A stretch of 64,000 nt of DNA from an uncultured Mageeibacillus sp. (GCA_964486135.1 CAZAKT010000001.1:18631-82630), one strand, 5' to 3'; numbered from the stretch's first letter, positions 7,011-17,814 are shown. The notes: a model not told the origin generated them from the sequence alone. A program made the numbers and translations.

Positions 7011-8545
7011 GACGAAGACTGTCGATCTACGCGCGGACCCTCCTGAAGATATCCGCGGCCATCCTGGTCATCTTCATCGTTCTGGCGACCGTTTATGGGG
7101 CTGTATACAGTATTTCATCAGATTATCAGAGGAAGGAGGAGCTGAGGCGCAATGCCGTCGAGCTGTCCAACCTGACGGAGGACAGGATGGATGCAGGCCA
7201 TACGACCTTTACCAGTACGGACATCACCGGGCACATTGCCTTTGCGGCCCGGTCGACCGGCGCCTTTGTCTGGATCGTCAACGCCCATGGGGCCATCATC
7301 TACCATACCGGCATACCCGCCGATACCATCGCCCAGATGGAAAGAAGCGGTGAACTTCCCGGTGGAGACCCCCTCCTGCCGACCGAGGCCCGGAACTCGA
7401 TCCGTGCCGTTTATTGTGAAGCGGGGAATAAGACGGGCTTTTCGTCACTCCTGACGGATTCGGCCGGCTGGCTTATCGCCAGTTCACCACTGGGCGTTCA
7501 TGGAGACCTCTACACGGGTGAGGTCATCCTCTTGAAACACCAGCGGCCTGAAAGTCTGGTCTCCTTTCTGCGTGAGCATAATGTGCCCATCTCCTTCTCC
7601 CTTGCCTTCCTGCTTTCCTTGGCCATTATCATCTGGCTTTCCCGTGATATTACCCGGCCAATATCCGAGTTGGCCAAGACGGCCAATTCCGTCTACGCGG
7701 GTGACTTGTCCGCCCGGGTAACACTGAGGGGGGATAAGAGGACCCTCACCCTGGATGAGGAAGAGGCGGAAGAGGAGAAGGCTGGGGGCCATCCGCACGA
7801 GGACGATTTGACAAGACTTGTGCGCACTTTCAATACCTTGATCGCGACCTTCGAGGAGCGCGAACAGCAACACTCCGAATTTCTGGGCAATGTATCCCAC
7901 GATCTTCGAACGCCTGTGACATCGATCGGCGGCTTTGTCGAGGGTATGCGTGACGGCACCATTCCAAAGGAAAGATACGCTTATTACCTGGACATCATCA
8001 AGGATGAGACGGACAGGCTCAAGCGGCTGATCGACGATCTCTTTGAGGGCAAGGGCCTGGATGACTCAAAGGGGTTGAAGCAAGAGGTGTTCGACCTCTA
8101 CGAATTGGTTTGCCAGGTCAAGCAGTCCTTCGAGCCCATGCTTTTTGAAAAAAATATTGATTTGGAGATCAACTGCGATCACCGCTTTGATGGCCCCCTT
8201 CGGGCTGTCGGGGATCGGGGCCAACTAACGCGTGTGCTGAACAATATTATCGCAAACGCGGTGAGGTATACGCCGCAAAGGGGCCTTATCCTGGTGAGCC
8301 TGGAGGTTGGGGACCGCTTCATCAGTGTTTCGGTTGACGATAACGGTCCCGGTATTCCAGCCGAAGATCTCCCACACATCTTTGATCGTTTCTACAAGGC
8401 CGACAAATCACGCGGCGGGGAAGGTTCAGGCTTGGGGCTTTACATCGCGCGCGCCCTGATCAAGCGCCACGGCCAGGAAATAGAGGCCGCCAGATCGACC
8501 CGGCTGGGCGGGGCCCGGATCAGCTTTACAGTGGCCCGCCCCTGA
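7007..8545 (+). CDS. Sensor histidine kinase (2 TM, HAMP, HisKA, HATPase_c)
   Basis: The H-box is 'FLGNVSHDLRTP', the N-box 'NNIIANAVRYTP', and the G-boxes 'DDNGPGIP' and 'GSGLGLYIA'. The start overlaps the response-regulator stop. Confidence 0.87.
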   Translation: MRRRLSIYARTLLKISAAILVIFIVLATVYGAVYSISSDYQRKEELRRNAVELSNLTEDRMDAGHTTFTSTDITGHIAFAARSTGAFVWIVNAHGAIIYHTGIPADTIAQMERSGELPGGDPLLPTEARNSIRAVYCEAGNKTGFSSLLTDSAGWLIASSPLGVHGDLYTGEVILLKHQRPESLVSFLREHNVPISFSLAFLLSLAIIIWLSRDITRPISELAKTANSVYAGDLSARVTLRGDKRTLTLDEEEAEEEKAGGHPHEDDLTRLVRTFNTLIATFEEREQQHSEFLGNVSHDLRTPVTSIGGFVEGMRDGTIPKERYAYYLDIIKDETDRLKRLIDDLFEGKGLDDSKGLKQEVFDLYELVCQVKQSFEPMLFEKNIDLEINCDHRFDGPLRAVGDRGQLTRVLNNIIANAVRYTPQRGLILVSLEVGDRFISVSVDDNGPGIPAEDLPHIFDRFYKADKSRGGEGSGLGLYIARALIKRHGQEIEAARSTRLGGARISFTVARP

Positions 8546-8633: not shown

Positions 8634-9848
8634 ATGGGGAAGGACAGGAGAGGATTAATCATTCTGATCGCCGTATTCCTGCTTGCGGCCCTGCTGATCC
8701 CCCTATCCTGTCCCGGCCGGGGTTCGGAGGAAACCGAGCCGTCCACCGAGAGCACGACCTCCAGCTCAACGCCGAAGCTGACGACCTCTACAAGGACCTT
8801 GACCACGACGCCCCCCTCGACAAGGAGCTCGGAACCGGTTACTGAACCAGACCCGGTCGACCAGGATCCCAAATCCTCCCCGGAGGAAATCTTCGAGGCT
8901 GTCGCTCCCTCGGTGGTCTCCGTCCATGTGACCATTCCGGCATCCTCACTCTATTCGAAGCGGGAGGAATTCTTCTCCGGCCTGATCATCGATGAATCAG
9001 GTATCATCGTCACCTGCTACAGCTTGCTTGAACGCGCGCTTGATTATAAGGGGAGCCTGCTGGCGGATGCCTCGATCCGGATTTATACCCGCGGGTCAAA
9101 TGAGGTGTTTTCAGCCTCACTCCTGGGCTTCCACTCCCTGGCGGACCTGGCCCTCCTCAAGATAAAGGAGGGGGACGGAGAGGAATTCCCCGCCCTTCCC
9201 CTGGCCAAGGCCCCCGATCTCGCTATCGGGAGTCAGGTCTACGCTGTCGGTTATCCACCTTCCATGGTCAGGGAGGGTGGATTCTCCATGGGCCACATCA
9301 CCTCACTTTACCGGACATCCTTTGAGGAGGACGGTTCCCCCGTCGGCTTGATTGAAACAAGTATCGCGACCTTGTCGATCTACGCCGGCAGCCCCCTGGT
9401 CAACCCTGACGGCCAGGTGGTCGCCCTGGCCAGTGGTTATCTGAAGCGGATCTACTCGCAAAACCAGGGTTACGCCGTTCCCTCCCCTGTTGTGGCCGAT
9501 GTGGTCGAGAGAATACTGGCCGCGCCTGACCAGTCGCCGGATATAAAGGCTGAGTTGGGTATTACGGTTCTGGGCGATGAGGACGCGGAGGAACTACGTG
9601 AAAGATTCGGCTATCCGGCGGGGCTCTATATAAATTACGTCAAGCCGGAAAGCGCCGCCTATACAGCGGGTCTGGATACGGATGATATCCTCCTTAGCAT
9701 AAACGGGGAAGCCATGGAGGTGACAAGAGATTTCCTCACTTTCATGGACGGCCAAGTGGTAGGGACCCTGGTTGAAATGACCCTGTTCAGGCCATCAGAT
9801 GGGAGGACCCTGATTAAAAGTTGCTATCTTCTTGAGGCTTCGCCGTGA
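8634..9848 (+). CDS. Membrane-anchored trypsin-like (HtrA/DegP-family) protein with a C-terminal PDZ-like region
   Basis: ATG 8634 follows GGGGAGGAG. The protein has an N-terminal TM segment, a Ser/Thr/Pro-rich linker, then 'DLALLKI', 'VYAVGYP' and 'AGSPLVNPDGQVVAL' in the order seen in HtrA proteins. The C-terminal part is PDZ-like (LYINYV...AYTAGLDTDDILLSINGE). Confidence 0.7.
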   Translation: MGKDRRGLIILIAVFLLAALLIPLSCPGRGSEETEPSTESTTSSSTPKLTTSTRTLTTTPPSTRSSEPVTEPDPVDQDPKSSPEEIFEAVAPSVVSVHVTIPASSLYSKREEFFSGLIIDESGIIVTCYSLLERALDYKGSLLADASIRIYTRGSNEVFSASLLGFHSLADLALLKIKEGDGEEFPALPLAKAPDLAIGSQVYAVGYPPSMVREGGFSMGHITSLYRTSFEEDGSPVGLIETSIATLSIYAGSPLVNPDGQVVALASGYLKRIYSQNQGYAVPSPVVADVVERILAAPDQSPDIKAELGITVLGDEDAEELRERFGYPAGLYINYVKPESAAYTAGLDTDDILLSINGEAMEVTRDFLTFMDGQVVGTLVEMTLFRPSDGRTLIKSCYLLEASP

Positions 9849-10519
9849 GCCGGCTTTCAAAGGTCGGACGGGCCCGCGACATTGCGGACCTTTTGTTGGC
9901 GCGCTATCCCGAGGCCAGTTGCACCCTCTCGCACCGATCCCCCTGGGAGCTGCTTGTGGGTGCCATCCTGGCCTCCCAATGTACGGACGAGCGTGTAAAC
10001 AGGATTACACCTGCCCTCTTTACCCGTTATCCCGATGCGGAGGCCATGGCCGGGGCCGAACTGGGAGAGCTTGAGGGGCTGATCCGGAGCTGTGGTCTTT
10101 TCCGGTCGAAGGCGCGGGCCCTGATCGGAAGCGCCCAGGCGATCCTGGACCAGCACGGGGGGCGGGTGCCTTCTTCAGCCCCCGCCCTGATGGAACTGCC
10201 CGGTGTCGGCCGCAAGATTGCCAATCTGCTTATGGGCGACGCCTTCGGGGCCCAGGCGGTTGTTGTCGACACACATTGCGCCAGGATAAGCCATCTGATC
10301 GGCTTCACTGACAGCGATAAACCACTAAGGATCGAGCGGGACCTGATGGATCAACTGCCGGAGGACTTGTGGACCCTATGGGGCCACCTTATGGTCGCCC
10401 ACGGACGGGTACTCTGCCGGGCCCGCTGCCGGGACTGCCTTGCCTGTCCCATCCGCCAACTTTGCCGCTATGGAGCGGCCGTCGATCCTGCTTCCGGAAA
10501 AGAGGGCGATTGTGTCTGA
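9845..10519 (+). CDS. nth: Endonuclease III (HhH-GPD DNA glycosylase/AP lyase with a 4Fe-4S cluster)
   Basis: It has 'WELLVGAILASQCTDERVN', the HhH motif 'LPGVGRKIANLL', and a C-terminal Cys cluster 'CRARCRDCLACPIRQLC'. Confidence 0.9.
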   Translation: MSRLSKVGRARDIADLLLARYPEASCTLSHRSPWELLVGAILASQCTDERVNRITPALFTRYPDAEAMAGAELGELEGLIRSCGLFRSKARALIGSAQAILDQHGGRVPSSAPALMELPGVGRKIANLLMGDAFGAQAVVVDTHCARISHLIGFTDSDKPLRIERDLMDQLPEDLWTLWGHLMVAHGRVLCRARCRDCLACPIRQLCRYGAAVDPASGKEGDCV

Positions 10520-12593
10520 GCCGGGAAGGGAGGACTGGCTGGGTCAGAGGCCAGGGGTTCTTCCCGGTATTTCGGACAAGAGGGAGCGGCTTTTTTCCAA
10601 GCTGGGCATCGAAAGCATAGGTGAACTCCTTTGGCACCTGCCCCGATCCTACGAAAATTGGCAGGATCGCCTGTCCGTCAGCTCATTGCGAAGCGGGGAG
10701 ATCGCTGTATTCGAAGCGGTAGTCGAGAATGTCCCTTCCCTCTCCAGGCGGGGGAAATTGACCTACACGCGTGCCCGGCTTGCCGATGACAGCGGATCAA
10801 TCCAGGCGGTCTGGTTCAACCAGCCCTGGGTCGCCAACCAGATCCGGAGGGGGGAAGCCTATATCTTTCGGGGCAGGATTGAGAGCGGCCGGGGCCGGTC
10901 TGTCGTCAATCCGGAATTTCGTCCGGCGGACCAGGCTGCCAACCTGCCCCCCCTCCTGCCGGTTTATCCCCTGACGGCAGGCCTCTTCCAGTCCAATATC
11001 AGGCAGGCAGTCTCGGCTGCCCTGAAGAAGCCGGGCCTCCACTTTGAAGAGACCTTGCCGGCCGCCATCCGCCGGGAGGGGAAGTTGGCCACGGCCGATT
11101 TTTCCATCCGGCGCATTCATTTCCCCGCTGACCTCCATGAGGTGGACTTGGCCCGGCGACGCCTGGCCTTTGAGGAACTCTTTTTAGTCCTGGCGGGGCT
11201 TCGCGCCCTGAAAGCTGGCCGGCAGAAGGTAAAGGGACCGGCCATGAGGGTGGAAAAAGAGACAGGAGAAAAGCTGGACCAGCTGCTTGTCGGACTGCCT
11301 TACGATTTGACCCCCTCCCAGCGATCGACTGTGGAAGCCATCCTGGATGACTACCGCAGGCAGAAACCGGCCAACCGCCTCATACAAGGTGATGTCGGTT
11401 CGGGCAAGACGGTCGTGGCCGCCGCCGCCATGGCTGTGGCCTGCTGGGAGGGCTATCAGTCGGTGCTCCTGGCGCCGACAACGATTCTGGCGGACCAGCA
11501 TGCCCGGACAGTCGCGGACCTGCTGGAGGGGAGCGGCCTTGAGATCGCCTTGCTCACGGGGGCCGTGCCCCCCTCCAAACGACGGCTTTTGCTCCAGGGA
11601 TTGGCCGACGGGACCATCGACATCCTGATCGGGACCCACGCCATACTTGAGCAGGATGTCGTCTTCTCGAAACTGGCTTGCTGTGTGACGGATGAGCAGC
11701 ATCGCTTCGGTGTCAGGCAGCGTCTTAGCTTGACGGGGAGGGGGGATCTGCATCCCCACGTTTTGGTTATGTCGGCCACCCCCATTCCCAGGACCCTGGC
11801 CATGATTCTGTACGGGGACCTTGACATATCGGAGATAAGGGATATGCCTCAAGGCCGCCTGCCCGTCAAGACCTATACAGCGACTGAAAAGGACAGGCCG
11901 CGCATCGATCGCATGATCAGGGGAGAGGTGGAAAAGGGGGGGAAGGTTTATGTGGTCTGTCCCACCATTGAGGAGGCCGAGGGGCTGGATCTTCAATCGG
12001 CGGAGGCCATCTACGAAAGACTGTCAGGACAGGTCTTCAGTGACAGGCGGGTCGCTCTCCTGCACGGTCGCCTGAAAGCGAAGGAAAAGGCCGAGGTCAT
12101 GGCTGCCTTTGGCCGCGGGGAAATCGATATCCTGGTGTCGACAACCGTCATTGAGGTCGGGATAGACCAACCGGAGGCAACCCTGCTCCTGGTCGAGAAC
12201 GCGGAACGGTTTGGTCTGTCACAGCTCCATCAATTGCGGGGTCGGGTCGGCCGGTCACAGCTTCAATCCTACTGTGTCCTGGTAAGCGACAGCGAGGATC
12301 CCCTGATCAAGCGGCGGCTGAGGGCGCTTTGCAAAAACCACAGCGGTTTTGCCATTGCGGAGGAGGACCTGAAACTGAGGGGGCCGGGTGACTTGTTCGG
12401 TATGCAACAACATGGTCTTCCCGACTTCAAGATCGCGAATCTCTATGAGGATAGCCAACTCCTGAAGGAAGCAGCCGCCGCCTCCGAAAGCATTTTCAGG
12501 GATGATCCCGATCTGAAGAAGCCGGAAAACAGCAGGATCCTGGAAGCCTTCCGGTCGCGCTACGGTGATCGCCTGTCACGACCAGGCTTATAA
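10470..12593 (+). CDS. recG: ATP-dependent DNA helicase RecG
   Basis: The start region reads 'LGIESIGELLWHLPRSY'. Helicase motifs are Walker A 'GDVGSGKT', 'DEQHRFG', 'MSATPIPRT' and 'QLHQLRGRVGR'. The start is uncertain between ATG 10470 and GTG 10512. Confidence 0.9.
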   Translation: MERPSILLPEKRAIVSEPGREDWLGQRPGVLPGISDKRERLFSKLGIESIGELLWHLPRSYENWQDRLSVSSLRSGEIAVFEAVVENVPSLSRRGKLTYTRARLADDSGSIQAVWFNQPWVANQIRRGEAYIFRGRIESGRGRSVVNPEFRPADQAANLPPLLPVYPLTAGLFQSNIRQAVSAALKKPGLHFEETLPAAIRREGKLATADFSIRRIHFPADLHEVDLARRRLAFEELFLVLAGLRALKAGRQKVKGPAMRVEKETGEKLDQLLVGLPYDLTPSQRSTVEAILDDYRRQKPANRLIQGDVGSGKTVVAAAAMAVACWEGYQSVLLAPTTILADQHARTVADLLEGSGLEIALLTGAVPPSKRRLLLQGLADGTIDILIGTHAILEQDVVFSKLACCVTDEQHRFGVRQRLSLTGRGDLHPHVLVMSATPIPRTLAMILYGDLDISEIRDMPQGRLPVKTYTATEKDRPRIDRMIRGEVEKGGKVYVVCPTIEEAEGLDLQSAEAIYERLSGQVFSDRRVALLHGRLKAKEKAEVMAAFGRGEIDILVSTTVIEVGIDQPEATLLLVENAERFGLSQLHQLRGRVGRSQLQSYCVLVSDSEDPLIKRRLRALCKNHSGFAIAEEDLKLRGPGDLFGMQQHGLPDFKIANLYEDSQLLKEAAAASESIFRDDPDLKKPENSRILEAFRSRYGDRLSRPGL

Positions 12594-12603
12594 GGGGGAA
12601 CTT

Positions 12604-13206
12604 GTGCCCAGGATCATCACAGGGAAAGCCAAGGGGACAAAACTTGTCACCCCCGCGGGATCAGCCTGCCGGCCGACTTCAGGCCGGACAAAGGAGGCGC
12701 TTTTCTCCCTCCTGGGGAGCCGGGTCGAAGGCGCCCGCCTCCTGGATCTCTTTGCCGGTTCTGGCCAGATCGCCTTGGAGGCCCTCTCGCGCGGTGCCGC
12801 TGAGGCCGTCTTGATTGAGAGGGACCGGCTGGCGCTCAAGGCAATTAAGACCAACATCCAAAAGACCGGTTTAAGCAAGGGAGCCCGCTTGCTGGCGGGT
12901 GATTACAGGGGTCGGCTCAAGCAGCTGAAAAGGGCCGGTGAGAGCTTTGACATCATCTATGTCGACCCACCCTGGCGCAGGTCGGCCGGTATCTGGAAGG
13001 CAATGGAAGACTTGCTCCTTCCCCTCCTCCTGCCTGACGGGATGATCATTCTGGAGTCTGACAAGACTGATGGGCTGGAAGGCTTGCCAGACACGGCGCT
13101 GACACTTGTCCGCAGTTGTCAGTACGGTAGCGGCGTGCTATCCTTTTACCAGTTTAAAGCCGGATTCAGCGGGAAGGAACCGCCCAGGGACAGGATTATA
13201 GAATGA
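12604..13206 (+). CDS. rsmD: 16S rRNA (guanine966-N2)-methyltransferase RsmD
   Basis: It reads 'RIITGKAKGTKL..P....RPTSGRTKEALFS', with 'DLFAGSGQIALEALSRGA' and 'VDPPW'. GTG 12604 follows AAGGGGGA. The upstream extension overlapping recG was rejected. Confidence 0.85.
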   Translation: MPRIITGKAKGTKLVTPAGSACRPTSGRTKEALFSLLGSRVEGARLLDLFAGSGQIALEALSRGAAEAVLIERDRLALKAIKTNIQKTGLSKGARLLAGDYRGRLKQLKRAGESFDIIYVDPPWRRSAGIWKAMEDLLLPLLLPDGMIILESDKTDGLEGLPDTALTLVRSCQYGSGVLSFYQFKAGFSGKEPPRDRIIE

Positions 13207-13238
13207 CCAGGAATTTTGATCTCAAGGGGAGAAACCCT

Positions 13239-13736
13239 ATGGTATTTCCGGGGACTTTCGACCCCTTTACGGCGGGTCACCTCAGTATTGTGCGGCGGGC
13301 GGCAGGCCTATGTGATGAACTGGTGGTGGCCGTTTTTGACAACTACAGCAAGAGGCCGGTTATGAAGCGGGAAGACAGGGTCTGCCTGATAAGGAAAGCC
13401 TTGGCGGATCTTCCCCTTGTAACCGTCGTCGCTTTCGACGGACTTCTGGTCGAATTTTGCCGGGAAAACAATATCGGGACCGTTATCCGCGGTATCCGGG
13501 ATCCCTCCCAATTCGAGGAGGAACAGACCATGGCTGAAATCAACCGTCGGATTGGCCAGGGGATCGAGACCCTTTTTCTGCCGGCCTGGTCCGAACTGAG
13601 GCATGTGTCATCGTCGGCTGTTCGTGAGATTGCCAAGCTGGGGGGAGACATCACTGGATTTGTTCCCGGGCTGATTGAAGAGGATATCGTGAAATCCTAT
13701 GCAGGAGAATCACGGGGAGGTGAGACCAATGAATGA
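13239..13736 (+). CDS. coaD: Phosphopantetheine adenylyltransferase CoaD
   Basis: It starts 'MVFPGTFDPFTAGHLSIVRRA' (the T/HxGH motif) and has 'ISSSAVREI' near the C-terminus. An RBS (AAGGGGA) precedes ATG 13239. Confidence 0.9.
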   Translation: MVFPGTFDPFTAGHLSIVRRAAGLCDELVVAVFDNYSKRPVMKREDRVCLIRKALADLPLVTVVAFDGLLVEFCRENNIGTVIRGIRDPSQFEEEQTMAEINRRIGQGIETLFLPAWSELRHVSSSAVREIAKLGGDITGFVPGLIEEDIVKSYAGESRGGETNE

Positions 13737-14253
13737 CTATCAGGGCAGGCGTTCCAATGAGAGGGAAGAGCCGCGCAGACCGGCCCGGCCGCGTGATGAC
13801 AGGAGCGTGGAGACCTTGCTCGACCGCCTGGAGGCTGAATTGATGGACGCGAAGAATCTTCCCTTCTCGGACAAGTGTGTGGTCGAGAGAGAGGAGATGC
13901 TCTTCCTGGTCAGGATGATCCGTGAGGGCCTGCCCGAGGAATTTGAGCGGGCCAAATGGGTACTCCAGCAAAATCGCCAATTGATCAGTCAGGCGAGGCG
14001 GGAGGCGGACACGATAATGCGGGACGCCGAAGCGCAGATGGCCCGTATGATCGATGAGCACGAAGTGACCCAGCAGGCGCTTAACAACGCATCCGTCATG
14101 ATCGACGACGCGACCCGTCAAGGCTCTGAAATCAGGGCCGCTGCCATTGATTACGCTCACGAGATGATGACCAATCTGGAGAATCATCTGACAGATATCC
14201 TGGTCAACATCACAAGAAACAAGAAGAGCCTGGGAGATTCCGATGGCGTCTGA
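13729..14253 (+). CDS. Conserved coiled-coil protein of unknown function
   Basis: ATG 13729 follows GGAGGTG. The protein has an Arg-rich N-terminus, then a continuous heptad-like helical sequence (LLDRLEAEL...READTIMRDAEAQ...). From memory, proteins with this layout sit next to coaD in Clostridia and are often annotated 'ATPase' or V-ATPase subunit H-like. I saw no catalytic motif. Confidence 0.5.
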   Translation: MNDYQGRRSNEREEPRRPARPRDDRSVETLLDRLEAELMDAKNLPFSDKCVVEREEMLFLVRMIREGLPEEFERAKWVLQQNRQLISQARREADTIMRDAEAQMARMIDEHEVTQQALNNASVMIDDATRQGSEIRAAAIDYAHEMMTNLENHLTDILVNITRNKKSLGDSDGV

Positions 14254-15337
14254 ACTTAATATTGTCGTTCTGTTCGGTGGGAAATCGGGAGAACATGATG
14301 TCTCGCGGTCTTCGGCCGCCTATATCATCGAAACACTGGGCCAGTGCCCGGAATACAGGATCCTGCCCGTCGGCATTACCAGAGAGGGCAGCTGGTACGC
14401 CTACGGGGGTCCCGTCTCCGCCATGCGGGAGGGTAACTGGCTGGAAGAAGGCCCGGTAAGTCCCGCCACCCTCCTGCCCGACACGGGCAGGCATTTTCTC
14501 TTTACCAGGCGGCAGGGGCAGACGGTAAGCCATTCCGTTGATTGCGTCTTCCCCGTCCTTCATGGAAGATATGGAGAGGATGGCACCATCCAAGGGATGT
14601 TGGAAATGGCTGGCATTCCTTTTGTCGGCTGCGGAATGACTTCCTGCGCCCTGGCCATGGACAAGGTCTTCGCCAATACCATCTTCGACTATAAAGGAAT
14701 TCCGCACACGCCCTGGCAGTCCCTGGACCGCGATTCCTGGCTCAAGGACGGCTCACGGATCCTCCCTGACCTGGTCAAGGGCTTCACCTATCCCTTATTT
14801 GTCAAGCCGGCCCGGGCGGGTTCCTCACTGGGGATCAGCCGGGTACTCGAGCAGCAGGATCTGCCGGCTGCCATTGACCGGGCCCTGGTCCATGACCGGA
14901 AGGTAATCATTGAAGAGGCGGTCCGGGGCAGAGAGCTGGAGATTGCCGCCCTTGGCGGCTATGGGGAACCGGTTCTCTCCCCTATAGGCGAGATCATTCC
15001 CGACCGTGATTTCTATGATTATGATTCCAAGTATGAGGAGCATTCGGCTTCACAGTTGATCATACCGGCGGAACTGACGGATGGGGAGGAGGCTGCCTTG
15101 CGAAAAATCGCGGTGGATGCCTGGGGGGCGCTTGAATGCTATGGCCTGGCCCGGATTGATTTCTTCCTCTCGGAGGATGGCCGGATTCTCTTGAATGAGA
15201 TTAATACCATGCCGGGATTTGTCAGTATCAGTATGTATCCGAGACTCTTCCGCGCCGCCGGTTATGGCGACGCGCAACTCTTGAGGGAATTAATCAACCT
15301 GGCCCTGGCGCGGGGATGGAATGGGGATATGAGGTAA
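14243..15337 (+). CDS. ddl: D-alanine--D-alanine ligase
   Basis: It has 'VLFGGKSGEHDVS', 'VFPVLHGRYGEDGTIQG', and an ATP-grasp C-terminus 'RIDFF......LNEINTMPG'. Confidence 0.92.
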   Translation: MASELNIVVLFGGKSGEHDVSRSSAAYIIETLGQCPEYRILPVGITREGSWYAYGGPVSAMREGNWLEEGPVSPATLLPDTGRHFLFTRRQGQTVSHSVDCVFPVLHGRYGEDGTIQGMLEMAGIPFVGCGMTSCALAMDKVFANTIFDYKGIPHTPWQSLDRDSWLKDGSRILPDLVKGFTYPLFVKPARAGSSLGISRVLEQQDLPAAIDRALVHDRKVIIEEAVRGRELEIAALGGYGEPVLSPIGEIIPDRDFYDYDSKYEEHSASQLIIPAELTDGEEAALRKIAVDAWGALECYGLARIDFFLSEDGRILLNEINTMPGFVSISMYPRLFRAAGYGDAQLLRELINLALARGWNGDMR

Positions 15338-15340
15338 AAA

Positions 15341-16852
15341 ATGCTGAACCCAGATATGATCTTGATTGTGATTGTGGCCTTTTCTGCCGTCTTGGCCACT
15401 GCTCTTGTGGTCTTTATGACGCTTGTCCTTTTGAAGAACCGCCGGCAGCTTGACCAGGCCCGACTCCTGACCGAGGATGGCCTGGCCCTCCTGGACAGGG
15501 CAGGGAGCAGGGATACTGATTCCGTGACGGCCCTCTTTTCCTTGTCGGACCGGCCTGAACTGCAGGCCTTTGGTGAAAGGCTTGCAAGTATCAGCCAGCT
15601 GCATTTCCAGGGGCGTTTCCTGCCCGACCCGGGGCCTGTCCTGGCCTCACTCGGACTCTTCCCCTCCCAGCAAATGAAAGAGAGCGGGAGGCTTTCCTCC
15701 CTGATATGCTTCTCCTTGGGGGCAGGCGGCTTTGTTTTGGCCCTCCTCCTTCCCTTTGCGGCCGGTTTGACCACCCTCGCCCTGCCTGTCTCCCTCTCCC
15801 TTCTCCTCCTGGCCCTGGTCTGCGCCCTGGTTACCCTCTGGCACACCTACAAATCGGCTCTCGTCCTGGAAGAAGAGAAGAATAGGCTCTGTGTCGTATT
15901 GGCGGCCAAGGCGCCTGTTTTCATGGACTCGACAGGTGTTGCCGTCCTGGTGAGTGAGATGATTGGCTATGGGGAAAGAATAAGGAGCGAAGTGGTCGAA
16001 TTCTCGAGACTGGCCGACGAGTTGGCCGCGGGAGAATTTGCGGAAGGAATTAAGACAAGCGTCAGGGAGATTATGAAAGAAGAGGTGGCGCCGCCCCTGA
16101 AGGACTCCAATTATGCCCTGACTGAACTTGCCCGCTCCCTTGCCGAGAAGCAGGAGCAGGGTATGGCTGACCTTGCTGACTCTTTTTCCGATTCCGTCGC
16201 GCAGGCCCTGTCCCAGCACCTGGCGCCCCTGCCCGATAAGCTGCAGATCCTTCATCAGGTCGCGGCTCACAGCTCCGATATGATGGAAGAGGCTACTGCC
16301 TCCATGGCAAGGACAAGGGATGAGAGCAAGGAGATCAACGAGGATGTCCGCGAGGCGCTCCGCTTGATGGCCCTGGCAAAAAATGATATTGCTGACGAAA
16401 TGGCCTCCATCAGTGACAGTCTGGAGATACTGGCAGAGAGTACCGGGAAAATGACGGCCCTCTACGCCGATGAAGAGACTGACCTGGCCTCCCATATCAA
16501 GGAAATGACTGAACAGCTGCGGATTTATTCCGAAAAGATTGGCCAAGGGATCACCGAGAGTTCGAAGGCAATCGAGGCTTCTGTAAAGATGTCGGCATCC
16601 CATAACAAGAACGCGGCCATCCTGATGGAGCGCCTCGATGAACAACTCAGCATCCTTGAGGATCTGGGCCGGCAAATCAGCGATAATACGACCAATTTCA
16701 CCAAGGAATCAGCCAGTTTCGTCAGCAGGACCCTGGAAGAGTACGATGTCAGTCTGGCCGAGGTGGTTGAGCGCCTGACCTTTACGACGGCGGAAATCCG
16801 CGACGCCATTGACGTTCTGCCCCAGGCCATCCGGGGAGCGGGCGACAATTAG
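15341..16852 (+). CDS. Hypothetical membrane protein: TM1, about 85-aa loop, TM2-TM3 hairpin, then an all-helical tail of about 335 aa
   Basis: ATG lies 3 nt after the ddl stop, with GAGG upstream. Hydrophobic segments are at aa 6-31 and 119-167. The rest is rich in E/A/L/S/D with few prolines and no glycine-rich stretches. I recognised no family motif. Confidence 0.6.
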   Translation: MLNPDMILIVIVAFSAVLATALVVFMTLVLLKNRRQLDQARLLTEDGLALLDRAGSRDTDSVTALFSLSDRPELQAFGERLASISQLHFQGRFLPDPGPVLASLGLFPSQQMKESGRLSSLICFSLGAGGFVLALLLPFAAGLTTLALPVSLSLLLLALVCALVTLWHTYKSALVLEEEKNRLCVVLAAKAPVFMDSTGVAVLVSEMIGYGERIRSEVVEFSRLADELAAGEFAEGIKTSVREIMKEEVAPPLKDSNYALTELARSLAEKQEQGMADLADSFSDSVAQALSQHLAPLPDKLQILHQVAAHSSDMMEEATASMARTRDESKEINEDVREALRLMALAKNDIADEMASISDSLEILAESTGKMTALYADEETDLASHIKEMTEQLRIYSEKIGQGITESSKAIEASVKMSASHNKNAAILMERLDEQLSILEDLGRQISDNTTNFTKESASFVSRTLEEYDVSLAEVVERLTFTTAEIRDAIDVLPQAIRGAGDN

Positions 16853-16854
16853 GC

Positions 16855-17814
16855 ATGGATGGGAAGAGCAAGCAGGACCAGGGGCCGGTCCCCAAAAGGG
16901 ATAGGAGCCAGAGGGGCGGTTCAATCAGACCCGTCACCCTCAACTTGCCCAAATCAGCGGAAGAAGATACAAGCCGGTTGGATCCGGCAGTAATCCCTGA
17001 GCTTCGCCCCCGCAAGCTTGATCTACCTGTATCCCCGGAAAAAACACCGGCCGTCCCGCCCCTTCGTCAGAAGCCTGCCAAACGGGCCCTTCCGCCCCGC
17101 CGAGAGATCCCCCTGGTCTACAAGAGCCTGGGAGAGGCCTTGGAGGGCTGCCGCGACAAGCACCCCTTGCCGGTTGAATTGATTTTCAGCCAGGAAGCCT
17201 CCCATTCGACCTGGCTCCTTTCCCAGTTGAGGGGGGTCAGGACGAGAAGGGAGCTTCAGAAATTTGCTGACAGCTTGGGTCCCCGGGACCTGGCCCTGCT
17301 TTTCACAACGCTTTCAACCTTGAAACGTCGCGAGGAAACGGCCCAAATCCAAAACTTGATTCGTCTCAGGGCCTCTCATTACTTGTATTTATGTGGTTGG
17401 CTGACGCTCCAATATACCTATCCGAGGGCTTCTGTTTCCGATGCCCTGGCCGACCTTTGCATGATCCTGGAGGATATCCGTTTTGTCCGTGACAATGAAC
17501 GGAGGATGAGCCGCAGGACGGTCAGGCCCTTGCCGGCTATTCCACTTGGTCCAGGCCGTGTCCTCTGGAGCCGGGTTCCGCTGATTTCGGGGATAGCCTT
17601 GCCCAACAGCAGGCACTTCATTTCAGATATCGCAGGTGAGATCTATGATTCAAAGCTGGATCTGAGTGAATTCTATCTGGAGTACGCGCTTTTCCCTGAT
17701 CTCCCCCTCGCCGAGGCCATTACGGCGCGTTACAACGAGATGGTCTCAGGTGTGTCCGCCAACCCCCTTTTATCCCAGGATTTCTTCGACCGCTTCCGAA
17801 AACCGGGTCAATAA
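16855..17814 (+). CDS. Hypothetical protein: Pro/Arg/Lys-rich N-terminus of about 85 aa plus an aromatic-rich helical domain of about 230 aa
   Basis: ATG lies 2 nt after the preceding stop, so the two genes are translationally coupled. The codon pattern matches the neighbouring genes. I recognised no motif. Confidence 0.55.
   Translation: MDGKSKQDQGPVPKRDRSQRGGSIRPVTLNLPKSAEEDTSRLDPAVIPELRPRKLDLPVSPEKTPAVPPLRQKPAKRALPPRREIPLVYKSLGEALEGCRDKHPLPVELIFSQEASHSTWLLSQLRGVRTRRELQKFADSLGPRDLALLFTTLSTLKRREETAQIQNLIRLRASHYLYLCGWLTLQYTYPRASVSDALADLCMILEDIRFVRDNERRMSRRTVRPLPAIPLGPGRVLWSRVPLISGIALPNSRHFISDIAGEIYDSKLDLSEFYLEYALFPDLPLAEAITARYNEMVSGVSANPLLSQDFFDRFRKPGQ

What the first reader, a model, noticed from the sequence alone, without database searches (positions are those of the whole stretch)
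15341..17814. Two coupled genes of unknown function at the end of the nth-recG-rsmD-coaD-ddl gene chain
From 8634 to 17814 every plus-strand gene overlaps or nearly abuts the next (gaps of 0-32 nt). The last two genes gave me no recognisable family signature.

Gene 1 is 503 aa. It has one N-terminal TM segment (aa 6-31), a loop of about 85 aa, and a TM hairpin (aa 119-167, nt 15695-15841). The remaining tail of about 335 aa (nt 15842-16849) is uninterrupted E/A/L/S/D-rich helix-forming sequence.

Gene 2 is 319 aa and starts 2 nt after gene 1 stops. It has a Pro/Arg/Lys-rich, probably disordered N-terminus of about 85 aa (nt 16855-17109), then an aromatic-rich helical domain.

The layout '3 TM plus a very long helical tail' loosely resembles scaffolds and stator-like proteins such as EzrA, or MotA/ExbB/ZorA-like proteins with tails. 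I could not find the MotA/ExbB TM motifs, and there is no MotB/ZorB-like partner.

The pair is coupled to ddl and sits next to the envelope-polymer cluster at 17849-24035. Together these point to a lineage-specific cell-envelope or division module rather than a mobile defence cassette. Codon and GC texture match the neighbouring genes.
Basis: partly seen in the sequence, partly recalled or inferred. Interest (0 to 1): 0.6.

Follow-up and report, generated by a model that had tools for sequence, protein, structure and literature searches.

The report
Zorya-derived ZorA/ZorC pair without motor
The two "unknown" genes are diverged relatives of ZorA and ZorC from the Zorya anti-phage system that have lost the motor partner ZorB, the ion-path residues, the DNA-binding half of ZorC and the nuclease ZorD, yet are kept as conserved core genes in a whole order of Clostridia, and in related bacteria the same pair sits inside type IV pilus operons.

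Summary
They are not family-less.

- **Gene 1** (15341-16852) is a full-length homologue of type I ZorA (hhalign 99.7 %, E 3e-27), including the conserved tail-tip motif. Its TM2/TM3 ion-filter residues are hydrophobic, and its TM region is less conserved than its tail.
- **Gene 2** (16855-17814) is homologous to the N-terminal half of ZorC. It lacks the EH-signature half and carries a new basic, proline-rich N-terminus.
- **Missing parts:** no ZorB, ZorD or pilus gene lies in the 64-kb window or within 6 kb of the pair in the 72 Saccharofermentanales loci I fetched.
- **Conservation:** the pair is adjacent in 61 of 63 species loci; the other two contigs end too early. It sits in three fixed housekeeping contexts (ddl, pyrG, fabD-M29) and has dN/dS 0.08-0.18, like ddl.
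- **Relatives:** more distant ZorB-less relatives lie between the pilin gene and pilD-pilB-pilT.

The most likely reading is a non-rotary, membrane-anchored ZorA-like stalk whose tip holds a ZorC-like adaptor, put to a non-defence use. The homology is shown; the function is inferred. The link to ddl is specific to one lineage.

The parts
15341..16852 (+). Gene 1: ZorA-like protein, 503 aa (3 TM segments plus a long cytoplasmic helical tail)
   Evidence: ORF and translation. hhalign of family alignment A1 against bona fide type I ZorA alignment A8 gives prob 99.7 %, E 3.4e-27, 469 columns. The exhaustive profile search recovers true ZorA proteins. Foldseek top hits are ZorA, ExbB and TolQ. dN/dS is 0.11-0.12.
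15356..15433 (+). TM1 (aa 6-31), followed by KNRR; the inferred topology is N-out, as in ExbB and ZorA
   Evidence: Hydropathy and flanking charges. AF2 pLDDT is about 90. The 3-TM layout is conserved across 257 family representatives.
15434..15694 (+). Membrane-proximal cytoplasmic domain (aa 32-118), with the conserved G-R-x-L-P-D-P motif at aa 91-97 (nt 15611-15631)
   Evidence: Nearly invariant G91, R92, P97 and D96. The motif aligns with the 'PDI..YF' motif of true ZorA.
15695..15841 (+). TM2-TM3 hairpin (aa 119-167), aligned to the MotA_ExbB channel helices of ZorA but without the ion-filter residues
   Evidence: The position equivalent to ZorA T147 is F131 (family: L9 A3 F2 S2 G2 T1 I1). 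The position equivalent to S184 is L155 (family: F10 L7 V2 M1). Mean conservation is 0.45, against 0.81 in the tail tip. No PF01618 hit in any of 20 members.
15842..16660 (+). Cytoplasmic helical tail (aa 168-440), including the conserved post-TM block PVF..G.A.LVSE..YGE and the Q..GM..LA..F motif
   Evidence: Alignments. All-helical AF2 model with low monomer confidence. Weak PADLOC ZorA tail hits. The region aligns to the ZorA tail in hhalign.
16661..16834 (+). Tail tip (aa 441-498), with the near-invariant motif F-T-x-E-S...D-x-S-L-A-E-V-V-E-R-L-T-F-T-T-A-E-I-R-D-A-x-D-x-L-P
   Evidence: This is the most conserved part of the protein (0.81). The same motif lies at the C-terminus of true type I ZorA ('FDxGLSEIxxRLSGTITEIxDxVDELP'). 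The broad family profile hits the last residues of E. coli ZorA 8qyd_A (533-726 of 729).
16855..17814 (+). Gene 2: ZorC-like protein, 319 aa (short form)
   Evidence: ORF. 39-42 homologues, all unnamed. It lies directly downstream of the gene 1 homologue in 61 of 63 species loci, and the other 2 contigs end too early. dN/dS is 0.08-0.18.
16855..17109 (+). Disordered basic, proline-rich N-terminus (aa 1-85), variable in length between species, with the conserved I-R-P-x-x-L motif at aa 24-29 (nt 16924-16941)
   Evidence: Composition and charge. No secondary structure in AF2. Length variation and conserved R25. The motif is present twice in the L005 homologue. This region is absent from long-form and ZorC relatives.
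17110..17811 (+). Conserved helical domain (aa 86-319), homologous to the N-terminal half of the ZorC core; the EH-signature half is missing
   Evidence: An HMM built only from short-form sequences (A3) hits true ZorC of L074 (E 3e-8) and the ZorC-like protein of L099 (E 1e-12). hhalign of broad family A6 against ZorC A7 gives prob 98.5 %, E 2e-15, 317 columns, with window residues 88-301 aligned to the first half of ZorC. The short form alone against ZorC gives prob 34 %, E 4e-4. The C-terminal W...IGSHC...F.IAD region of long forms and the VxEF...RxIH motif of ZorC are absent.

Best explanation
The pair is a reduced, vertically inherited derivative, or sister, of the type I Zorya ZorA-ZorC pair.

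**Gene 1** keeps the ZorA architecture: N-out TM1, a membrane-proximal cytoplasmic domain, a TM2-TM3 hairpin, a long helical tail and a conserved tail tip. It has lost what makes ZorA a proton-driven 5:2 rotor. The two ion-filter residues are hydrophobic, the channel helices are the least conserved part of the protein, and no ZorB is present.

**Gene 2** keeps only the N-terminal half of the ZorC core. It has lost the EH-motif half that binds DNA and has gained a basic, proline-rich disordered N-terminus with an IRPxxL motif. No ZorD nuclease is present.

**Inferred mechanism.** Gene 1 forms a static, probably oligomeric, membrane-anchored cytoplasmic stalk. Its conserved tip docks the ZorC-like domain of gene 2, and the disordered arm of gene 2 engages a third, unknown partner close to the membrane. 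It would therefore be a scaffold or adaptor rather than a motor or a DNA-degrading defence system. Its fixed position among housekeeping genes and its housekeeping-like selection suggest a cellular role. The placement of more distant ZorB-less pairs inside type IV pilus operons suggests that this role began in connection with the pilus or DNA-uptake machinery.

**Shown:** the homology, the losses, the co-conservation, the selection and the genomic contexts. **Inferred:** oligomerisation, tip-to-gene 2 docking, a non-rotary mode of action and the cellular role.
For: **Gene 1 is a ZorA homologue.**
- The exhaustive A1 profile search finds 257 representatives. They include proteins that are MotA_ExbB-positive and match PADLOC ZorA1 at E 1e-33 to 1e-38.
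- Two of them (P0199, P0213) were looked up, and both sit in ZorA-ZorB(OmpA)-ZorC-ZorD(SNF2) loci; the ZorC gene has an EH_Signature Pfam hit in L074 and L075 but none on record in L076.
- hhalign gives 99.7 %, E 3.4e-27, full length, with a shared tail-tip motif.
- Foldseek top hits are ZorA, ExbB and TolQ.

**Gene 2 is related to ZorC.**, plus weak PADLOC ZorC hits for two divergent partner proteins.

**Losses.**
- The T147 and S184 equivalents are hydrophobic, and TM conservation is 0.45 against 0.81 for the tail tip.
- No PF01618 match.
- No ZorB, ZorD or type IV pilus gene in the window or within 6 kb in 72 loci.
- The EH region is absent. Published work shows that ZorB D26, ZorA T147/S184, ZorC E400/H443 and the tail tip are each required for Zorya defence (PMC11946911).

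**Core-gene behaviour.**
- The two genes are adjacent in 61 of 63 GTDB species loci.
- There are three stable housekeeping synteny classes.
- dN/dS is 0.08-0.18, against 0.12 for ddl.
- No relatives were found in IMG/VR.

**Pilus link in relatives.** The layout pilin | ZorA-like | ZorC-like | PilD | PilB | PilT recurs across the loci from the metagenome scan.
Against: - No experiment or complex prediction supports the proposed tip-to-gene 2 contact.
- The AF2 tail model has low confidence (pLDDT about 50), and the gene 2 model is poor (pLDDT 58).
- A B-type subunit or an effector encoded elsewhere in the genome cannot be excluded from a 64-kb window.
- The window's lineage has no pilus genes nearby, so the pilus link is an extrapolation from relatives at about 15-20 % identity.
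- The deep branching of the rough NJ tree has bootstrap support below 60, so the direction of evolution (loss from Zorya, or Zorya built from such a pair) is open.
- The direct profile-profile score of the short form alone against ZorC is weak (prob 34 %).
Confidence: 0.55

Rival explanations
1. It is still an anti-phage defence system: a minimal Zorya variant in which the ZorA-like sensor and ZorC-like adaptor activate an effector encoded elsewhere, or act by another route.
For: Homology to two Zorya I components. Co-conservation of the tail tip and ZorC-like domain, the parts implicated in effector recruitment. Some phages use pili as receptors, which could explain the pilus-linked relatives (the receptor point is my inference).
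Against: Every element shown to be essential for Zorya defence is missing: ZorB D26, the ZorA ion filter, the ZorC EH motif and ZorD. The pair is found in 63 species loci at fixed housekeeping positions and under housekeeping-like selection, which is unlike the usual defence-island pattern. Nothing was found in viral contigs.
Confidence: 0.15
2. It is an accessory of type IV pili or DNA uptake that acts in trans with pilus genes encoded elsewhere in the genome, for example by sensing or positioning the pilus base.
For: In more distant ZorB-less relatives the pair lies between the major pilin gene and pilD-pilB-pilT-pilM in most loci that have enough flanking sequence. An intermediate locus (L099/L100) has ZorA-like, ZorB-like and ZorC-like genes directly followed by pilB-pilT-pilM.
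Against: No pilus genes lie within 6 kb in any of the 72 Saccharofermentanales loci, nor in the 64-kb window. Another ZorB-less relative (L105) is in a prfC/YebC context. The window's gene 2 has a different architecture from the pilus-linked long form. Whether these genomes encode pili at all was not tested.
Confidence: 0.15
3. It is a lineage-specific cell-envelope or division module functionally tied to ddl and the neighbouring teichoic-acid genes.
For: Gene 1 starts 3 nt after ddl ends, and no strong terminator lies between them. LtaS-like, YidC-TagF-like and LicC/LicA-like genes are adjacent. The ddl-pair order is conserved in class I loci.
Against: In classes II and III and in L105 the pair lies next to pyrG, fabD-M29 peptidase or prfC. 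In some class II loci ddl lies 4-5 kb away on the other strand. The downstream teichoic-acid genes are replaced by ABC transporters in L003/L004 and L027. No Pfam family, including division families such as EzrA, reached E <= 1 for gene 1.
Confidence: 0.1
4. Gene 1 is an active 5:2-type ion-driven motor that uses a B subunit encoded elsewhere.
For: Fold and topology are those of ZorA/ExbB/TolQ. The equivalents of G143 and G146 are partly kept: G127 is present in 18 of 20 members.
Against: The ion-filter positions are hydrophobic and variable, and the TM helices are the least conserved region. No B subunit is next to the pair in any of about 100 ZorB-less loci. In the one intermediate locus the ZorB-like protein appears to have Asn where the essential Asp is expected (read by eye, not aligned).
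Confidence: 0.05

Closest known systems
ZorA of type I Zorya (E. coli EcZorI; PDB 8qyd; PADLOC ZorA1; Pfam ZorA-like_t1 / MotA_ExbB)
   Same: Full-length homology (hhalign 99.7 %). Same 3-TM topology with a membrane-proximal cytoplasmic domain, a long helical tail and the same C-terminal tail-tip motif. Foldseek best hits.
   Different: No GxxGTFxG or AFxTS channel motif. The T147 and S184 equivalents are hydrophobic. The TM region is poorly conserved. There is no ZorB partner. The tail is shorter (about 335 aa, against about 500 in EcZorA). The gene is a core syntenic gene rather than part of a defence island.
ZorC of type I Zorya (EH_Signature, PF15611)
   Same: The conserved domain of gene 2 (aa 86-319) aligns with the N-terminal half of the ZorC core. 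As in Zorya, the gene lies downstream of the ZorA-type gene.
   Different: It lacks the C-terminal half that carries the Glu/His EH motif, which is needed for DNA binding (PMC11946911; alignment). It has a new disordered basic N-terminus with an IRPxxL motif. It gives no Pfam or PADLOC hit on its own.
ExbB / TolQ / MotA stator A subunits (5:2 motors)
   Same: Fold-level similarity and N-out 3-TM topology, as in ExbB and TolQ.
   Different: No PF01618 sequence match, no B subunit, no conserved polar channel residues, and a very long tail.
Pilus-linked ZorA-like/ZorC-like pairs (undescribed; seen here in metagenomic loci L073, L081-L103)
   Same: Same two-gene order, same absence of ZorB and ZorD, same degenerate channel helices and the same tail-tip motif. 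They group with the window's family in the rough tree.
   Different: They are embedded between the pilin gene and pilD-pilB-pilT. Their tails are longer (640-940 aa proteins). The ZorC-like partner is the long form (about 400-440 aa), which keeps the C-terminal half with Asp in place of the EH Glu and no His.
EzrA
   Same: A membrane anchor plus a long helical cytoplasmic region.
   Different: EzrA has one TM segment and a spectrin-like repeat fold (my own background knowledge). No Pfam family, EzrA included, reached E <= 1 in any of 20 family members. The homology is to ZorA instead.

Membership tests
Zorya type I system (ZorABCD) | ZorA: 3-TM MotA/ExbB-like protein with a long cytoplasmic tail and a conserved tip | tested here: met
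   hhalign of A1 against true ZorA gives 99.7 %, E 3.4e-27, 469 columns including the tip. True ZorA proteins are recovered by the A1 profile.
Zorya type I system (ZorABCD) | ZorA ion-permeation residues (Thr147 and Ser184 in EcZorA) and the MotA_ExbB channel motif | tested here: not met
   The equivalents are F131 and L155, and both positions are hydrophobic or variable across the family. No PF01618 hit in 20 members.
Zorya type I system (ZorABCD) | ZorB: single-pass protein with an essential Asp and a peptidoglycan-binding domain, encoded next to ZorA | tested here: not met
   Gene 2 starts 2 nt after gene 1 and has no TM segment. phmmer with three ZorB or ZorB-like proteins finds nothing in the window or in 72 related loci.
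Zorya type I system (ZorABCD) | ZorC with the EH signature (Glu...His) core that binds DNA | tested here: not met
   The N-terminal half is homologous, but the half that carries VxEF...RxIH is absent from the window protein. No PF15611 or PADLOC ZorC hit.
Zorya type I system (ZorABCD) | ZorD: SNF2-type helicase/nuclease effector in the same locus | tested here: not met
   The next gene is a convergent LtaS-like gene. There is no ZorD homologue in the window or in the related loci.
Zorya type I system (ZorABCD) | Anti-phage activity | not testable with these tools
   This needs phage challenge experiments.
MotA/ExbB/TolQ 5:2 stator A subunits (PF01618) | Sequence match to PF01618 above the gathering threshold | tested here: not met
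   No hit at E <= 10 in any of 20 family members. True ZorA relatives do match.
MotA/ExbB/TolQ 5:2 stator A subunits (PF01618) | Fold of the TM and membrane-proximal domain | tested here: inconclusive
MotA/ExbB/TolQ 5:2 stator A subunits (PF01618) | Pentamer around a B-subunit dimer | not testable with these tools
EzrA-type division scaffold | Match to the EzrA family profile | tested here: not met
   No Pfam family, EzrA included, reached E <= 1 for gene 1, or appeared among the recurrent weak hits of 20 family members. Gene 1 has 3 TM segments.
Pilus-operon ZorA-like/ZorC-like pairs (undescribed group seen here) | Pair embedded between the pilin gene and pilD-pilB-pilT | tested here: not met
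   No PilB, PilD, PilM, PilT homologue or prepilin motif in the 64-kb window, nor within 6 kb in the 72 Saccharofermentanales loci.

The most novel reading that the evidence does not exclude
There is a large, undescribed branch of ZorA/ZorC homologues that never had, or has lost, ZorB and ZorD and is not a rotary motor. It serves as a membrane-anchored signalling or scaffolding stalk for cellular machines: type IV pili in some lineages, and an unknown housekeeping process in Saccharofermentanales. If so, Zorya defence and this branch are two uses of one tail-tip plus ZorC-N-half docking module. The window's maximally reduced pair would then define the minimal interface by which ZorA tails recruit ZorC, which is an open point in the Zorya mechanism.
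Probability: 0.35. Interest if true: 0.8.

Novelty: new variant of a known kind. Interest (0 to 1): 0.66.

Why it matters
**How it differs from known Zorya.** Zorya is described as a ZorAB proton-driven rotor that recruits ZorC and ZorD to destroy phage DNA, and as under-represented in single-membrane bacteria (PMC11946911). Here a whole order of Gram-positive Clostridia keeps a ZorA/ZorC pair as conserved, syntenic core genes. The pair is stripped of every part shown to be essential for defence.

**What the relatives add.** Related pairs are built into type IV pilus operons. This would be an example of a defence-type module in a cellular role, or a glimpse of the cellular ancestor of Zorya.

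**A testable consequence.** The two parts that survive in the most reduced version are the ZorA tail tip and the N-terminal half of ZorC. That gives a concrete hypothesis for the still unknown ZorA-ZorC contact.

**Annotation.** It also gives a name to about 250 clusters of proteins currently labelled 'hypothetical'.

Tried and rejected
- **Direct HMM scans.** Pfam, NCBIfam and PADLOC scans of both window proteins gave only weak ZorA tail hits for gene 1 (E 2e-4) and nothing for gene 2.
- **PDB sequence searches.** The narrow family profiles gave nothing significant. The broad gene 2 profile and a Firmicute ZorC did not reach E. coli ZorC. I therefore placed the EH motif by its conserved VxEF...RxIH pattern and 47-residue spacing in three true ZorCs, not by direct alignment to EcZorC.
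- **Gene 2 structure.** The AF2 model was poor (pLDDT 58), and its Foldseek matches are meaningless (best E 1.3).
- **Apparent gene fusion.** The gene 1-gene 2 fusion in L016 is an artefact of a run of N.
- **Viral contigs.** No relatives were found.
- **Readings I rejected.** EzrA, PspA/ESCRT-like, HBL/ClyA-like and apolipoprotein-like readings of the tail rest only on compositional coiled-coil hits. A pseudogene or relic reading is rejected by dN/dS.
- **Literature.** Searches for ZorA-like proteins, a Zorya-pilus link and the EH signature found no prior description.
Full report
**1. The observation**

The two ORFs are at the stated coordinates. Gene 1 is 15341-16852 (503 aa) and gene 2 is 16855-17814 (319 aa). 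They are separated by TAG-GC-ATG, at the end of a tightly packed plus-strand chain.

Pfam confirms that chain as an HtrA-like protease, Nth, RecG, RsmD, CoaD, a 184-aa protein without a family, and Ddl. Downstream, on the minus strand, are an LtaS-like sulfatase-fold protein and a YidC + CDP-glycerol glycerophosphotransferase fusion. A plus-strand HTH + nucleotidyltransferase + choline-kinase protein follows.

Gene 1 has hydrophobic segments at aa 1-34 and 117-172, and the rest is helical and rich in A/E/L/S/D. Gene 2 has no TM segment and a Pro/Arg/Lys-rich, structure-less first 85 aa. GC content is uniform across the region. The description is therefore correct.

**2. Direct family scans and close homologues**

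Pfam and NCBIfam give nothing for either protein. PADLOC gives only weak hits of the gene 1 tail to ZorA models (best E 2e-4).

Word-indexed searches find 32 homologues of gene 1 and 39 of gene 2. All are unnamed proteins of Clostridia or Saccharofermentanales MAGs.

The alignments show an unusual conservation pattern.
- **Gene 1:** the tail, and especially its last 60 residues (…LAEVVERLTFTTAEIRDAVDALP…), are nearly invariant, while the TM helices vary.
- **Gene 2:** a variable-length disordered N-terminus with a conserved IRPxxL motif precedes a well-conserved domain of about 235 aa.

**3. Gene 1 is a ZorA homologue**

- **Structure.** The AF2 model is confident for residues 1-190 (pLDDT about 85-90). 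Its best Foldseek matches in the PDB are ZorA (8qyk, 8qyd), ExbB and TolQ, with marginal E-values (3e-3 and up).
- **Exhaustive profile search.** A search of 1.84 billion representatives with the family alignment finds 257 proteins at E <= 1e-3. Almost all the full-length ones share the same 3-TM layout.
- **True ZorA proteins among the hits.** P0186, P0199, P0206 and P0213 carry the classic GILGTFLGL / AFxTS channel motif. Three of them pass the Pfam MotA_ExbB threshold (P0186 falls just short at 20.8 bits against 22.9). The three scanned with PADLOC (P0186, P0199, P0213) match ZorA1 models at E 1e-33 to 1e-38.
- **Their loci.** Two of these, P0199 and P0213, were looked up, and both sit in canonical ZorA-ZorB(OmpA)-ZorC-ZorD(SNF2) loci. 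The ZorC gene has an EH_Signature hit in L074 and L075, and none on record in L076.
- **Profile-profile comparison.** The window's family against eight such ZorA proteins gives 99.7 % probability, E 3.4e-27, over 469 columns. The aligned region includes the cytoplasmic PD-motif, both channel helices, the post-TM block and the tail tip. At the tip, 'FDxxLAEVVERLTFTTAEIRDAVDALP' faces 'FDxGLSEIxxRLSGTITEIxDxVDELP'.
- **Solved structure.** The broad family profile also reaches the extreme C-terminus of the solved E. coli ZorA, residues 533-726 of 729.

**4. What gene 1 has lost**

I used the alignment of a true ZorA to the E. coli structure sequence to fix the numbering. In the window protein the ion-filter residues Thr147 and Ser184 correspond to F131 and L155.

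Across the 20-member family these columns read L9 A3 F2 S2 G2 T1 I1 and F10 L7 V2 M1. Mean column conservation is 0.45 in TM2-TM3 and 0.81 in the tail tip. None of the 20 members touches PF01618, even at E <= 10.

Published mutagenesis shows that the T147A/S184A double mutant, ZorB D26N and tail-tip deletions all abolish Zorya function (PMC11946911).

**5. Gene 2 is a truncated ZorC relative**

A second search with the conserved domain added distant homologues of about 420 aa. Neighbours of gene 1 relatives supplied more.

These long forms carry an extra 190-aa C-terminal half (W…IGSHC…F.IAD) that the window's short form lacks.

| Comparison | Result |
|---|---|
| Broad gene 2 family (A6) against two true ZorC proteins, hhalign | 98.5 %, E 2e-15, 317 columns; window residues 88-301 cover the first half of ZorC |
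| HMM built only from short-form sequences (A3) against true ZorC | 22 bits, E 3e-8 |
| Same HMM against the ZorC-like protein of L099 | 37 bits, E 1e-12 |
| Short form alone (A3) against ZorC, hhalign | weak: 34 %, E 4e-4 |
| Two divergent partner proteins against PADLOC | weak but specific ZorC hits |

In the joint alignment, true ZorCs show VxEF … RxIH with 47-residue spacing. That is consistent with the published Glu400/His443 EH motif. Every ZorB-less long form has Asp and no His at these positions, and the window protein lacks the region altogether. The EH motif is required for DNA binding and defence.

**6. Co-occurrence, context and selection**

A scan of one genome per GTDB species found 63 loci. 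All are from Saccharofermentanales, Mageeibacillus, Saccharofermentans or 'Oscillospiraceae' MAGs.

A gene 2 homologue lies immediately downstream, often overlapping by 4 nt, in 61 of them. The other two contigs end within about 0.5 kb. One apparent fusion is a scaffold gap.

The loci fall into three stable contexts:
- **Class I**, the window's type: htrA-nth-recG-rsmD-coaD-unk-ddl-pair.
- **Class II:** the pair is divergent from pyrG-guaB-greA-lysS. In some of these loci ddl lies 4-5 kb downstream on the other strand.
- **Class III:** fabD-M29 peptidase-pair, with the long-form gene 2.

Another relative sits beside prfC and yebC. No ZorB, ZorD or pilus homologue occurs in the window or within 6 kb in these loci, and none of the family is found in IMG/VR.

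dN/dS is 0.11-0.12 for gene 1 and 0.08-0.18 for gene 2. ddl gives 0.12 on the same window-versus-L010 comparison. The pair therefore behaves like a vertically inherited core gene pair. The ddl linkage is a lineage-specific arrangement rather than a constant functional association.

**7. Pilus-linked relatives**

Two distant family members were found next to PilM, pilins, prepilin peptidase and a PilB-type ATPase.

A metagenome scan with that subgroup returned 24 loci. Wherever flanks allow, the order is pilin (minus strand) | ZorA-like | ZorC-like long form | PilD (minus strand) | PilB | PilT … PilM. No ZorB or ZorD homologue was seen between or beside them.

L099 and L100 are intermediate. 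They have a ZorA-like gene, a ZorB-like gene, a ZorC-like gene, then pilB-pilT-pilM, with no ZorD. The ZorB-like protein has an OmpA-type C-terminus and appears to have Asn where the essential Asp is expected; I read this by eye and did not align it.

A rough NJ tree puts all ZorB-less proteins together, with the pilus-linked groups branching before the Saccharofermentanales classes. Deep bootstrap support is below 60, so this is only suggestive. I found no publication describing any of this.

**8. Interpretation**

The homology and the losses are shown. The following is inference.

Without an ion path or a B subunit, gene 1 cannot work as a proton-driven rotor. What selection preserves is the membrane anchor, the tail and above all the tip.

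The only part of ZorC kept in the window's lineage is its N-terminal half. This suggests that the tip and the ZorC N-half form the conserved contact. The new basic IRPxxL arm of gene 2 would then bind something else.

I propose a static membrane-anchored stalk-and-adaptor with a cellular role. That role may have originated with pilus or DNA-uptake machines.

The rivals are a residual defence function, a trans-acting pilus accessory, a ddl-linked envelope module, and a motor with a distant B subunit. They are scored in the rival explanations, each with the result that would refute it.

**9. Verdict**

Its 'loosely ZorA-like' hunch is right and can be made precise. Its envelope or division reading is not supported.

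The finding is a new variant of a known kind: a ZorB- and ZorD-less, core-genome ZorA/ZorC pair. It is of real interest to people working on Zorya, on 5:2 motors and on Gram-positive pili.

Noticed in passing
L073 6001-9300; L081-L083, L087, L090-L095, L097, L101, L103 (metagenomic loci): A ZorB-less ZorA-like/ZorC-like pair is a recurrent component of type IV pilus operons, in the order pilin | ZorA-like | ZorC-like | PilD | PilB | PilT … PilM. I found no description of this in the searched literature. The taxonomy of these contigs was not determined.
   Followed up: partly
L099 7017-12297 and L100 1661-6941: An intermediate locus has a ZorA-like gene (506 aa, partly preserved GIGIVASF motif), a ZorB-like gene with an OmpA-type C-terminus, and a ZorC-like gene, directly followed by pilB-pilT-pilM with no ZorD. 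The ZorB-like protein appears to have Asn where the essential TM Asp is expected (…WNHINTTAVALL…); I read this by eye and did not align it.
   Followed up: partly
window 13699-14253 (+): A 184-aa protein without a family lies between coaD and ddl. It has a disordered basic N-terminus and a coiled-coil region with weak V-ATPase_G, DivIVA and ATP-synt_B hits (E about 1e-3). It stays next to ddl in all class I loci and in several class II loci where ddl is on the other strand, so it is linked to ddl rather than to the pair.
   Followed up: partly
window 17849-24035: This is an envelope cluster. It holds an LtaS-like sulfatase-fold protein (17849-19837, -), an unusual single ORF that combines YidC (60KD_IMP) with a CDP-glycerol glycerophosphotransferase domain (19834-22116, -), and an HTH + nucleotidyltransferase + choline/aminoglycoside-kinase protein (22206-24035, +). 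In relatives L003/L004 and L027 the cluster is replaced by ABC transporters.
   Followed up: no
L045+L051 (SABL01), L061+L062 (SLHU01), L042+L066 (JAAYFZ01): Some MAGs carry two copies of the pair on different contigs, so paralogous pairs may coexist in one genome. Because the scan used one exact peptide pattern, further copies would have been missed.
   Followed up: no
L005 9516-10187: The class II gene 2 homologue has the IRPxRL motif twice in a much longer disordered N-terminus (GIRPARLPF and AIRPFRLNL). This suggests a short linear motif that can be multiplied.
   Followed up: no
L016 about 7480-7590: The apparent gene 1-gene 2 fusion ORF in this MAG is caused by a run of N (a scaffold gap) across the junction. 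It is not a real fusion.
   Followed up: yes
P0054 (gene 2 homologue, 375 aa, 2-kb contig): One gene 2 homologue carries a precomputed Pfam hit to PF04326, and none of the other 38 does. It may be a chance hit or a lineage-specific N-terminal addition.
   Followed up: no
L105 8001-12801 (GCA_030537565.1): Another ZorB-less ZorA-like protein (637 aa) with a 447-aa partner lies between prfC/yebC and a DUF4015 gene. This is a further housekeeping context, outside Saccharofermentanales classes I-III.
   Followed up: no
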